This document shows, one piece after another, positions 1,793-2,450 of a DNA stretch of 26,453 nt. The notes below the pieces were generated by a model. It had not been told where the DNA came from, made no database searches, and saw only the letters and a program-made list of their open reading frames with translations. The stretch is taken from IMG/VR virus record IMGVR_UViG_3300005528_000049. One strand, given 5' to 3'. Made by a program: the position numbers and the translations under genes. This DNA is from a virus. Taxonomy: Duplodnaviria > Heunggongvirae > Uroviricota > Caudoviricetes. Positions within the stretch are counted from its first letter, which is position 1; the number at the start of each line of letters is the position of its first letter.

Positions 1793-1909
1793 AAAGATAG
1801 TTCAGCAATTTAAAGTACAACCTGGATGTCATGAGTTCGAGCCTCATAGTCCTCCTTTGGGAGGCTTAGCTCAGTTGGTAGAGCGCCAGGGAATAACAAA
1901 ACTATCTTG
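1793..1909 (+). ncRNA. Array unit 3: YrlA-like RNA with a circularly permuted tRNA domain
   Basis: Order is cctgg(1821)-variable-T arm ATGAG/TTCGAGC/CTCAT-acceptor-like stem closed by a loop-TA-D arm GCTC/AGTTGGTA/GAGC-ccagg(1890), all inside the terminal stem. Confidence 0.85.
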
Positions 1910-1934
1910 ATAATCCCTCTATTAATTTTTTTAT

Positions 1935-1991
1935 AAAGATGATTCAGCAATTAATGTATTCAACTTATAACTGAAAAACACAATCATCTTG
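1935..1991 (+). ncRNA. Array unit 4: anticodon stem-loop mimic (UAU)
   Basis: ttcaa-CTTATAA-ctgaa at 1959-1975. Confidence 0.7.
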
Positions 1992-2003
1992 ATTACATCT
2001 TTT

Positions 2004-2063
2004 AAGAGATGGATCAGCAACTTCTGTATCTAACTTTTAATTAGAATAACAAAAGCCATCTTG
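2004..2063 (+). ncRNA. Array unit 5: anticodon stem-loop mimic (UUU, Lys)
   Basis: Perfect 5-bp stem with 7-nt loop: tctaa-CTTTTAA-ttaga at 2029-2045. Confidence 0.75.
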
Positions 2064-2074
2064 TAAACTTTTCT

Positions 2075-2142
2075 AAAGATAGTTCAGCAACTATAATAAT
2101 AACACTCTGCTTCATACGCTGACTAAGTTAAAAACTATCTTG
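2075..2142 (+). ncRNA. Array unit 6: anticodon stem-loop mimic (CAU)
   Basis: tctgc-TTCATAC-gctga at 2106-2122, with one U-U mismatch. Confidence 0.7.
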
Positions 2143-2156
2143 TTAAACATCTTATT

Positions 2157-2234
2157 AAAGTTAAGTCAGCAACTTATTTTCTAGGTTCAACTCCTAAATT
2201 GCAGCTTTGCAACGTGGTATAAAAACTTAACTTG
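2157..2234 (+). ncRNA. Array unit 7: minimal tRNA-like insert (T arm, short hairpin, D-loop remnant)
   Basis: tagg-TTCAACT-ccta at 2182-2196, then ttgca-gctt-tgcaa at 2199-2212, then tggta. Confidence 0.7.
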
Positions 2235-2246
2235 TAAACATTCTCT

Positions 2247-2303
2247 AAAGATGATTCAGCAACCCAAAAATACTTCTTAGGTTAAAGAAAAAAAATCATC
2301 TTG
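2247..2303 (+). ncRNA. Array unit 8 (hairpin with a GTT-AA loop)
   Basis: aagatgatt-CAGCAA...aatcatcttg; the insert is ttct-taggttaa-agaa. Confidence 0.7.
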
Positions 2304-2316
2304 TAAATTCTTCATT

Positions 2317-2450
2317 AAAGATAGTTCAGCTATTTAAAATAATAACAAAAAGGAATCGGCTTGTCATGAGTTCAAGTCTCATAATATTTGTAACAAAGTA
2401 TTTAGCTCAGCCTGGTAGAGCAGCCGACATATGTTAAAAAAACTATCTTG
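2317..2450 (+). ncRNA. Array unit 9: second YrlA-like RNA with a circularly permuted tRNA domain
   Basis: tcggc(2356)-ttgtc-ATGAG/TTCAAGT/CTCAT-aatattt/gtaaca/aagtatt (7-bp acceptor-like stem)-TA-GCTC/AGCCTGGTA/GAGC-a-gccga(2427). The motif here is CAGCTA. Confidence 0.85.

What the first reader, a model, noticed from the sequence alone, without database searches (positions are those of the whole stretch)
1793..2450. Two circularly permuted tRNA bodies (YrlA topology) and one minimal version inside the array
Seen: units 3 (1821-1890) and 9 (2356-2427) read 3'-half then 5'-half of a tRNA. Each has an anticodon-stem strand, a T arm with the same ATGAG/CTCAT stem and TTCRAGY loop, an acceptor stem closed by a short loop, TA-GCTC..TGGTA-GAGC and then the other anticodon-stem strand. 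The anticodon loop is replaced by the array's terminal stem. Unit 7 keeps only a T arm, a short hairpin and TGGTA. Known: this is the topology of YrlA Y RNAs. Inference: they present a tRNA elbow, or mimic a tRNA nicked at the anticodon, and could recruit or titrate elbow-binding nucleases and repair enzymes.
Basis: partly seen in the sequence, partly recalled or inferred. Interest (0 to 1): 0.85.

Follow-up and report, generated by a model that had tools for sequence, protein, structure and literature searches.

The report
Scrambled-tRNA Y-like RNAs in a phage
Two small RNA genes of an uncultured freshwater phage are tRNA look-alikes with their two halves in swapped order, mounted on the same short 'handle' as nine neighbouring RNAs and lying next to a gene for a Ro60-like ring protein. 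They are a phage variant of the known bacterial YrlA 'Y RNAs', not a new kind of thing.

Summary
Units 3 (core 1821-1890) and 9 (core 2356-2427) each read: anticodon-stem strand, variable region, T arm, 7-bp acceptor stem closed by a 4-6 nt loop, U8-A9, D arm, other anticodon-stem strand. ARAGORN calls both a tRNA once the halves are swapped back. The Rfam YrlA model is their best match, at 39.3 and 24.6 bits. That is below Rfam's cut-off of 69, but unit 9 scores the same as a mycobacteriophage YrlA.

Each body sits on a 9-bp helix plus CAGCAA/CAGCTA 'handle' shared by 11 units. The gene 76 nt downstream (DUF2828) is predicted to fold like Ro60. The same bodies on such handles lie beside DUF2828 genes in four other phage lineages, with compensatory changes in three of the four stems.

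The closest relatives (50-56% protein identity) carry the same modules in the other circular order. Their tRNA body is in normal order, and the handle is closed and sits in place of the anticodon loop.

Unit 7 has a genuine T arm, but the rest of its 'minimal tRNA' reading is weak.

My reading: YrlA-type partner RNAs of a Ro60-like protein. The published GNCGAA motif is absent, so this is a variant, not a member. Binding and function are inferred. This scan has met the family on other DNA (at least 326 genomes).

The parts
1794..1909 (+). Unit 3, whole: handle 5' strand 1794-1802, CAGCAA 1803-1808, permuted tRNA body 1821-1890, handle 3' strand 1900-1908
   Evidence: Rfam YrlA 24.6 bits on 1823-1888; own model R1 82.3 bits (built partly from this sequence)
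1821..1890 (+). Unit 3 body: anticodon-like stem (1821-1825 with 1886-1890), T arm 1831-1847, closed acceptor stem 1848-1866 (7 bp, one bulge, loop TTTG), D arm 1869-1884
   Evidence: ARAGORN calls a tRNA after re-permutation. The cloverleaf is 1.1 kcal/mol above the minimum free energy.
2318..2450 (+). Unit 9, whole: handle 5' strand 2318-2326, CAGCTA 2327-2332, permuted tRNA body 2356-2427, handle 3' strand 2441-2449
   Evidence: Rfam YrlA 39.3 bits, model 1-114, on 2344-2455. The minimum-free-energy fold is the permuted cloverleaf inside the handle helix.
2356..2427 (+). Unit 9 body: anticodon-like stem (2356-2360 with 2423-2427), T arm 2366-2382, closed 7-bp acceptor stem 2383-2402 (loop GTAACA; G3-U70 wobble), D arm 2405-2421
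2158..2234 (+). Unit 7: same handle (helix variant GTTAAGT) carrying a T arm 2182-2196, a 5-bp hairpin 2199-2212 and TGGTA 2215-2219
   Evidence: T-arm pattern count against Markov copies; fold; no hit with the body model
1648..2516 (+). Array of 10 units sharing a 9-bp terminal helix followed by CAGCAA (CAGCTA in unit 9)
   Evidence: With unit 11 included, 98 of 99 helix cells are paired, with compensatory changes at 4 of 9 positions.
6412..6466 (+). Eleventh unit with the same handle, between tRNA-Leu(UAG) 6334-6407 and tRNA-Glu 6481-6554
2526..4052 (+). DUF2828/DUF7788 protein (508 aa), predicted Ro60 fold (helical-repeat ring plus vWA domain with MIDAS motif D308-x-S310-x-S312, T381, D413)
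   Evidence: Pfam and PHROG. AlphaFold2 model, pLDDT 84.7, pTM 0.84. The top 12 Foldseek PDB hits are all Ro60, E 7e-8 to 6e-6; TM 0.51-0.57 for nine, 0.37 and 0.44 for two. Invariant columns.
156..1211 (+). ATP-dependent RNA ligase of the DRB0094/Naegleria (Rnl5) type, upstream on the same strand
   Evidence: PF09414 45 bits; TIGR02306 135.7 bits, below its 151 cut-off; Naegleria RNA ligase 5cot/6vt4, E 3e-4. Not linked to the Ro-like gene in other loci.

Best explanation
Units 3 and 9 are YrlA-type Y-like RNAs. Each is a complete tRNA core (D arm, T arm, 7-bp acceptor stem, 5-bp anticodon-like stem) written in the order 3' half then 5' half. The acceptor end is closed by a small loop. The RNA's own 5' and 3' ends pair in a 9-bp 'handle' helix followed by CAGCAA/CAGCTA.

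Shown here:
- the architecture
- that it is far beyond chance
- that it recurs, with compensatory changes, beside the same gene family in five phage lineages
- that the neighbouring protein is predicted to fold like Ro60

Inferred, by analogy with Ro60 and Y RNA:
- The Ro60-like DUF2828 ring binds the handle, which is the only part common to all 11 units.
- The tRNA-shaped body folds into an L, as the Salmonella YrlA domain does in its crystal structure. It is then the displayed cargo that docks a host factor recognising the tRNA core or elbow. In bacteria and in Thermus phage phiLo the known partner of Ro60-Y RNA particles is the exoribonuclease PNPase.
- Units 3 and 9 are then two of eleven interchangeable adaptors of one particle. 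Unit 7 is a cut-down adaptor that shows only a T loop.

Both acceptor stems have 7 bp. This is the feature that lets RNase P open Mycobacterium smegmatis YrlA, so they may be opened at the acceptor loop in vivo. That is inference only.

The confidence given (0.7) is for the whole statement. For the structural identity alone (a YrlA-type permuted tRNA body on a conserved handle) I would say about 0.9. For handle binding by the DUF2828 protein and an adaptor role I would say about 0.6.
For: Architecture and significance.

Calibration: a mycobacteriophage YrlA-like element 130 nt from a gene annotated 'Ro-like RNA binding protein' (41.8% identical to the window protein) scores the same 39.3 bits with Rfam YrlA. 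A Bacillus phage one scores 37.5.

The two paralogs: units 3 and 9 share near-identical T and D arms. Their acceptor and anticodon-like stems differ at almost every position yet stay fully paired.

Covariation: six bodies from five lineages (window twice, Bacillus phage, mycobacteriophage, and two metagenomic contigs that were not in the model).
- 99% of cells are paired, against 37-44% when partners are slid.
- 11 of 17 pairs show changes on both sides.
- The D stem is invariant.
- All six sit on a helix followed by CAGCAA or CAGCTA.

Handle: 98 of 99 cells paired across the 11 units, with compensatory changes at 4 positions.

Protein: Ro60 fold and invariant MIDAS motif.

Relatives: with the opening point rotated, units 3 and 9 align colinearly with the relatives' tRNA-with-handle RNAs at 52-64% identity. 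Body and handle are therefore kept together as one design.

Literature:
- YrlA lies within 4 kb of Ro60 in 254 bacteria and 22 phages, has a tRNA-like domain, and the 7-bp acceptor stem of M. smegmatis YrlA is cut by RNase P (PMC4201824).
- The YrlA domain is a close tRNA mimic without a free CCA end (bioRxiv 10.1101/312249).
- Phage phiLo Ro60 binds two Y-like RNAs and host PNPase (PMC12135203).

RNA libraries: the array is held in full in four metatranscriptome runs of four studies. The same runs hold a circular intron RNA of this phage at 10-20 times the flanking depth, so phage RNA is present in them.
Against: - Both Rfam scores are below the family cut-off of 69 bits. On a whole-window basis the E-value of unit 3 would be about 0.3.
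- The published Rsr-binding motif GNCGAAN0-1G is absent, and CAGCAA/CAGCTA stands in its place.
- The protein has no sequence-level match to any Ro60 structure or to the TROVE family. The link is by predicted fold only.
- Folding energies are only modestly better than shuffles (z -1.5 to -2.1). The minimum-energy fold of unit 3 is not the cloverleaf, which lies 1.1 kcal/mol higher.
- No discrete small RNA, no ends, no modification and no protein binding have been shown. The RNA-run contigs cover the whole 9 kb at flat low depth and cannot show RNA ends or levels.
- The closest relatives do not have this permuted form.
Confidence: 0.7

Rival explanations
1. Same RNAs, different job: decoys. The tRNA-shaped bodies, held on the Ro-like ring or free, soak up host tRNA-directed defence nucleases or tRNA-damage sensors instead of recruiting a helper enzyme.
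For: The locus sits among phage tRNA genes, here and in relatives. An RNA ligase is adjacent. The cargo varies between units while the handle is constant.
Against: The bodies lack an anticodon loop, which is the usual target of anticodon nucleases. The ligase linkage is not conserved in the other loci held. PF09414-type ligases occur elsewhere in all four phage genomes checked, whatever the topology, and the family also hits ordinary bacteria. No defence nuclease was identified here.
Confidence: 0.15
2. The array is mainly a cis-acting leader of the Ro-like gene. The units, including 3 and 9, are binding sites through which the protein controls its own mRNA, not free RNAs.
For: There is no terminator-like site between the array and the gene. 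Unit 10 ends 10 nt before the ATG. One RNA-run contig spans the array and the gene (record 20).
Against: An identical-handle unit lies 3.9 kb away between two tRNAs. In relatives, units lie both upstream and downstream of the gene and inside tRNA arrays. A leader would not need a full tRNA core with compensatory changes.
Confidence: 0.08
3. Permuted tRNA genes, as in the red alga Cyanidioschyzon merolae. The transcript would be circularised and re-opened at the acceptor stem to give a working tRNA.
For: The half order and the 7-bp acceptor stems fit. Relatives carry the same design with an open acceptor end. An RNA ligase is adjacent.
Against: There is no anticodon loop in either topology. The position is taken by 60-70 nt of handle and A-rich internal loops. 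The acceptor loops of 4 and 6 nt hold neither discriminator nor CCA. ARAGORN and the Rfam tRNA model call nothing in the native sequence.
Confidence: 0.02
4. Debris: a junction of two tandem tRNA genes (T arm of one, D arm of the next), or decayed tRNA genes, with no function of their own.
For: Tandem tRNA junctions do give weaker hits with both the Rfam YrlA model and my model R1 in the relatives' tRNA arrays. Chen et al. warn of this false positive.
Against: The strand after the T arm and the strand before the D arm are complementary over 7 bp and separated by only 4-6 nt. The outer strands also pair over 5 bp. There is no upstream 5' half and no downstream 3' half. Junction hits score 46 bits or less, against 58-83 for the true bodies. 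The design recurs in five lineages with compensatory changes.
Confidence: 0.02

Closest known systems
YrlA Y RNAs of bacteria and mycobacteriophages (Rfam RF02553; Chen et al. 2014, PMC4201824; structure of the Salmonella tRNA-like domain, bioRxiv 10.1101/312249)
   Same: Terminal helix formed by the RNA's two ends. Inner stem enclosing T, closed acceptor-like and D hairpins in that order. Near-invariant T and D arms with tRNA tertiary-contact nucleotides. Encoded on the same strand within 4 kb of a Ro60-type gene. More than one Y-like RNA per locus, some with only a T arm (M. smegmatis YrlB).
   Different: The handle motif is CAGCAA/CAGCTA, not GNCGAAN0-1G. Rfam scores (39.3 and 24.6) are below the cut-off of 69. 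The partner protein belongs to Pfam DUF2828/DUF7788, not TROVE. There are 11 handle RNAs, two with full tRNA bodies. Both acceptor stems have 7 bp.
Thermus phage phiLo Ro60 with Yrl1 and Yrl2 (PMC12135203; PDB 9KOP, 9L5Y)
   Same: A phage-encoded Ro60-fold protein with Y-like RNAs encoded just upstream of its gene. 9KOP and 9L5Y are among the top structural matches of the window protein.
   Different: The phiLo RNAs are stem-bulge-stem RNAs identified through a CGAA motif; the passages read mention no tRNA body. There are two RNAs, not eleven.
tRNA-order 'handle' RNAs in the closest relatives (e.g. L122 5835-5947 and 6096-6209; Synechococcus phage B23 at L001 5869-5978, annotated tRNA-Undet)
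   Same: The same modules in the same cyclic order: acceptor, D arm, A-run, handle strand, handle strand, C(A/T/C)GCA(A/T), linker, variable region, T arm, acceptor. After rotation, units 3 and 9 are 52-64% identical to them. They lie beside a DUF2828 gene 50-56% identical to the window's.
   Different: The opening point differs. In the relatives the acceptor end is open, like a real tRNA, and the handle is closed by a 2-5 nt loop. In the window the handle is open and the acceptor is closed.
Permuted tRNA genes of Cyanidioschyzon merolae and two-piece (permuted) tmRNA genes (from general knowledge; a cyanobacterial-type permuted tmRNA is present in relative L122 at 3528-3779)
   Same: The 3' half of a tRNA-like domain is encoded upstream of the 5' half.
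   Different: Those genes yield a molecule with a working acceptor end, and for tRNAs an anticodon loop. Here there is no anticodon loop and the acceptor end is closed.

Membership tests
YrlA (Rfam RF02553; Chen et al. 2014) | Score at or above the Rfam gathering threshold (69 bits) | tested here: not met
   39.3 bits (unit 9) and 24.6 bits (unit 3). A mycobacteriophage YrlA-like element next to an annotated Ro-like gene also scores only 39.3.
YrlA (Rfam RF02553; Chen et al. 2014) | T, acceptor-like and D hairpins in that order inside an inner stem, with tRNA tertiary-contact nucleotides including the 15:48 pair | tested here: met
   U8, A14, G15:C48, G18-G19, G53:C61, T54-T55-C56 and A58 are present in both units.
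YrlA (Rfam RF02553; Chen et al. 2014) | GNCGAAN0-1G motif near the 5' end (proposed Rsr contact) | tested here: not met
   The 5' region reads AAGATAGTT-CAGCAA (unit 3) and AAGATAGTT-CAGCTA (unit 9), with no GNCGAA. The motif definition is from PMC4201824.
YrlA (Rfam RF02553; Chen et al. 2014) | 5' and 3' ends pair in a terminal helix | tested here: met
   9-bp helix. 98 of 99 cells are paired over 11 units, with compensatory changes at 4 positions.
YrlA (Rfam RF02553; Chen et al. 2014) | Encoded within 4 kb of a Ro60 ortholog, on the same strand | tested here: inconclusive
   Units 3 and 9 end 617 and 76 nt upstream of a same-strand gene whose product is predicted to fold like Ro60. That gene is in Pfam DUF2828/DUF7788, has no TROVE hit and has no sequence match to solved Ro60 structures.
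YrlA (Rfam RF02553; Chen et al. 2014) | Bound by the Ro60 protein; carries tRNA-type modifications (pseudouridine 55, dihydrouridine) | not testable with these tools
   Needs immunoprecipitation and modification mapping.
Ro60/TROVE proteins (for the neighbouring gene) | Ring of helical repeats plus a vWA domain with a MIDAS motif | tested here: met
   AlphaFold2 model with pTM 0.84. The top 12 PDB matches are all Ro60 over the full length; TM 0.51-0.57 for nine, 0.37 and 0.44 for two. D308-x-S310-x-S312, T381 and D413 are invariant in 13 sequences.
Ro60/TROVE proteins (for the neighbouring gene) | Match to the Pfam TROVE domain, or sequence similarity to known Ro60 | tested here: not met
   Only DUF7788, DUF2828 and a weak VWA_2 hit. 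No PDB sequence hit below E = 1.
Functional tRNA gene, permuted | 7-nt anticodon loop, and an acceptor end that can be freed with discriminator and CCA | tested here: not met
   The anticodon position is occupied by the handle and internal loops. The acceptor loops are TTTG and GTAACA.

The most novel reading that the evidence does not exclude
The phage makes a Ro60-like particle that is a counter-defence device. One ring protein takes any of eleven handle RNAs, and the tRNA-shaped ones (units 3 and 9, and the T-loop-only unit 7) absorb or misdirect host nucleases that attack tRNAs during infection. Close relatives carry the same RNA design opened at the opposite point of the circle. This would then show that only the rigid link between handle and tRNA body matters. 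It would also give natural 'mutants' for finding the long-sought factor that reads the conserved D and T arms of YrlA.
Probability: 0.15. Interest if true: 0.8.

Novelty: new variant of a known kind. Interest (0 to 1): 0.5.

Why it matters
What the tRNA-like domain of YrlA does, and which factor reads its conserved D and T arms, has been open since 2014-2018. This locus, with its relatives, offers comparative material on three points.
- Two divergent tRNA bodies and a T-loop-only unit sit on one handle in one genome.
- The same design occurs in relatives with the circle opened at the acceptor end instead of the handle.
- The partner protein family (DUF2828) has the Ro60 fold but not its sequence, and occurs in 711 cultured-phage records.

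Together these say which features are dispensable (closed acceptor, free handle ends) and which are kept (D and T arms, handle motif, the link between them).

There is also a practical point. Annotation pipelines either miss these genes or label the relatives' form 'tRNA-Undet'.

Tried and rejected
- Megablast of window 1-8000 against cultured phages: no match.
- Whole-genome search: no genome is held for this window.
- A 14-base handle pattern scanned over IMG/VR gave only single chance matches and was useless.
- Close-relative covariation: the only near-identical contig (L192, 99.7%) has an identical array, so it carries no information.
- Orthologs of unit 7: 75-nt T-arm-bearing units exist in relatives, but their T arm lies at the other end of the cargo and they do not align convincingly with unit 7.
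- A loose handle scan (C[ACT]GC[AT][AT] plus any 7-bp helix) was dominated by noise and added no unit beyond the 11.
- Idea that the ligase converts the permuted form into the tRNA-order form, so that a ligase would mark permuted-form phages. PF09414-type ligases occur in all four genomes checked, whatever the topology, and none lies within about 4 kb of the Ro-like gene elsewhere. There is no support for the idea.
- Promoter and terminator consensus scan of 1400-4300: no more sites than in shuffles.
- RNA runs: contigs cannot show ends or levels. Contig edges near 1580/1581/1662 and 2561/2583 in three runs are only a hint of transcript boundaries.
- Literature: no paper in the held library contains the Dictyostelium Class I motif string I searched for, or describes Y-like RNAs with a 'Ro-like' phage protein in those words. 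None of the five DUF2828 papers concerns phage RNAs. The supplement of Chen et al. 2014, which lists the phage YrlAs, is not held. I therefore could not check which phage loci were already published.
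Full report
**What is there.** The window is AT-rich phage-like DNA, and megablast finds no match among cultured phages. Around the finding the + strand carries, in order:
- an RNA ligase gene at 156-1211 (PF09414; closest to the DRB0094/Naegleria type)
- a pentapeptide-repeat gene at 1214-1555
- ten tandem units at 1648-2516
- a 508-aa DUF2828/DUF7788 gene at 2526-4052

Each unit begins AAGATnnTT-CAGCAA and ends AAnnATCTT-G. An eleventh unit lies at 6412-6466, between two tRNA genes. 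Over the 11 units the 9-bp terminal helix is paired in 98 of 99 cells, with compensatory changes at four positions.

**Checking the observation.**
- In unit 9 the minimum-free-energy fold is the predicted four-way junction inside the handle helix.
- In unit 3 that fold lies 1.1 kcal/mol above the minimum.
- ARAGORN finds no tRNA in either native sequence. It calls both a tRNA when the 5' half is placed before the 3' half and an arbitrary 7-nt loop is added.
- A strict pattern for the permuted layout finds only these two sites in the window, against about 0.02 expected per window from Markov copies.
- Of all Rfam families, YrlA is the best match to both units. Unit 9 gives 39.3 bits over the whole model and unit 3 gives 24.6 bits over the core.
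- Both scores are below Rfam's cut-off of 69. However, a mycobacteriophage YrlA-like element lying 130 nt from an annotated 'Ro-like RNA binding protein' gene scores the same 39.3 bits, and a Bacillus phage one scores 37.5.
- The nucleotides that hold a tRNA in its L shape are all present in both units: U8, A14, G15:C48, G18-G19, G53:C61, T54-T55-C56 and A58.

Unit 7 carries a true T-arm motif. Six such motifs occur in the window: units 3, 7 and 9 and three tRNAs, against 0.07 expected. Its hairpin and TGGTA are too short to judge.

**The neighbour.** The DUF2828 protein shows no sequence similarity to solved structures. An AlphaFold2 model built on 13 relatives is confident (pLDDT 84.7, pTM 0.84). 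Its twelve best PDB matches are all Ro60: Xenopus, human, Deinococcus Rsr and Thermus phage phiLo. They match over the full length, with TM 0.51-0.57 for nine and 0.37 and 0.44 for two. The MIDAS residues of the vWA domain are invariant. tblastn finds this protein in 711 cultured-phage records. In mycobacteriophages it is annotated 'Ro-like RNA binding protein'.

**Conservation.** They do.
- A covariance model of the body (R1) finds, besides its four training sequences, two further bodies. One lies 118 nt upstream of a 39%-identical DUF2828 gene (L179, 67 bits). The other lies 294 nt upstream of a 37%-identical one (L189, 58 bits). Both sit on a helix followed by CAGCAA.
- Over the six bodies from five lineages, 99% of cells are paired, against 37-44% with partners slid.
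- Eleven of 17 pairs change on both sides, and the D stem is invariant.
- The structure was drawn from some of these sequences, which favours it somewhat. The two added sequences were not used to build it.
- Lower-scoring hits of R1 and of Rfam YrlA (46 bits or less) are junctions of tandem tRNA genes, the false positive that Chen et al. warn of.

**A circular permutation between relatives.** The closest relatives (50-56% protein identity) are freshwater contigs and Synechococcus phages B3/B23. They keep handle-only units on both sides of the gene, inside large tRNA arrays. They have no YrlA-order body.

Instead they hold 110-120-nt matches to the Rfam tRNA model that ARAGORN does not call. 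Each is a normal-order tRNA body with an open 7-bp acceptor stem and a discriminator base. Its anticodon loop is replaced by an A-run, the handle helix closed by a 2-5 nt loop, and C(A/T/C)GCA(A/T). In B23 one of these is annotated 'tRNA-Undet'.

If units 3 and 9 are rotated so that they start at the acceptor 5' strand, they align colinearly with these RNAs from end to end, at 52-64% identity. The alignment includes the linker after the motif. The two forms are therefore one design opened at different points.

It follows that neither a closed acceptor nor free ends at the handle is the conserved feature. This weakens the reading as a mimic of a tRNA nicked at the anticodon. What is kept is the link between handle and tRNA core.

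**Expression.** The array stretch is held in full by four metatranscriptome runs from four studies. Laid on 1-9000, their contigs cover the whole stretch at low, flat depth, which cannot show small-RNA ends or levels. The same runs hold a 320-nt circular RNA (joint 6258 to 5939) at 10-20 times the flanking depth. This is the excised group I intron of the phage tRNA-Leu(UAA), so phage RNA is present in these libraries.

**How it most likely works.** The following is by analogy with Ro60 and Y RNAs (PMC4201824; bioRxiv 10.1101/312249; PMC12135203).
- The ring protein binds the shared handle.
- The variable part is the effector-binding cargo.
- Units 3 and 9 display a tRNA core and unit 7 displays a T loop.

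Binding, folding in vivo and the partner enzyme are all inferred. The main functional rival is a decoy role against tRNA-directed nucleases. The adjacent ligase gives it little support, because that linkage is absent from all other loci held and ligases of this Pfam family occur elsewhere in phages of both topologies.

**Classification.** The RNAs work like YrlA and share its topology and core. They fail two defining features, the GNCGAA motif and the Rfam threshold, and the partner protein is in a different Pfam family. I therefore file them as a variant of a known kind, not as members.

This scan's earlier notes report the same handle family beside DUF2828 genes in at least 326 other genomes, including both topologies. 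I reached the same points from my own calls (22-50) before reading those notes. I could not find a published description of the CAGCAA handle or of such arrays in the held library. The phage list of Chen et al. is not held, so the mycobacteriophage members may already be in print as YrlA.

Noticed in passing
window 5897-6307 (intron about 5930-6258): tRNA-Leu(UAA) is split after U34 by a group I-like intron. Four metatranscriptome runs hold a 320-nt circular RNA joining 6258 back to 5939, at 10-20 times the flanking depth. This is what a truncated intron circle would look like (about the first 9 nt lost, with 4 nt of ambiguity). Rfam's group I model did not reach threshold here.
   Followed up: partly
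L122 5835-5947, 6096-6209, 5662-5779, 6212-6329; L124 5565-5677; L127 6070-6182; L134 5874-5983; L001 5869-5978: Closest relatives carry tRNA-order bodies whose anticodon loop is replaced by the closed handle plus C(A/T/C)GCA(A/T). These are a circular permutation of window units 3 and 9. Phage B23 annotates one as tRNA-Undet.
   Followed up: yes
window 6412-6466: Eleventh handle unit, with ends identical to units 2, 4 and 8. It starts 5 nt after tRNA-Leu(UAG) and ends 15 nt before tRNA-Glu, so tRNA-processing enzymes could release it.
   Followed up: partly
window 2383-2402: The closed acceptor stem of unit 9 has a G3-U70 wobble, the alanine identity pair of real tRNAs. In an AT-rich 7-bp stem this may be chance.
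   Followed up: no
window 1703-2460, spacers between units: The 10-27 nt spacers between units are themselves alike (G-TAAAC...Y-rich...TAAAG). They may be a processing site.
   Followed up: no
window 1722-1779 (unit 2): Weak match (21 bits, E 0.46) of a handle-only unit to the Rfam Dictyostelium Class I RNA family, through the stem plus CAGCAA. Earlier scan notes raise the same resemblance. I did not test it.
   Followed up: no
L122 3528-3779 (also L130, L135): Relatives of this phage encode a cyanobacterial-type permuted (two-piece) tmRNA just upstream of the Ro-like gene (Rfam RF01851, 116 bits; ARAGORN reports a permuted tmRNA).
   Followed up: no
window 7468-8286: ORF with PCRF and RF-1 domains (a class I release factor) that lacks the usual N-terminal part.
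   Followed up: no
window 15518-15817: Group I intron, Rfam RF00028 at 75.7 bits, between ORFs 14711-15178 and 15851-16042.
   Followed up: no
window 1-133 (L192 1436-1608): 30-nt tandem repeats at the 3' end of a long upstream ORF. All 8 differences between the window and the 99.7%-identical contig L192 fall at 12-42, inside these repeats.
   Followed up: no
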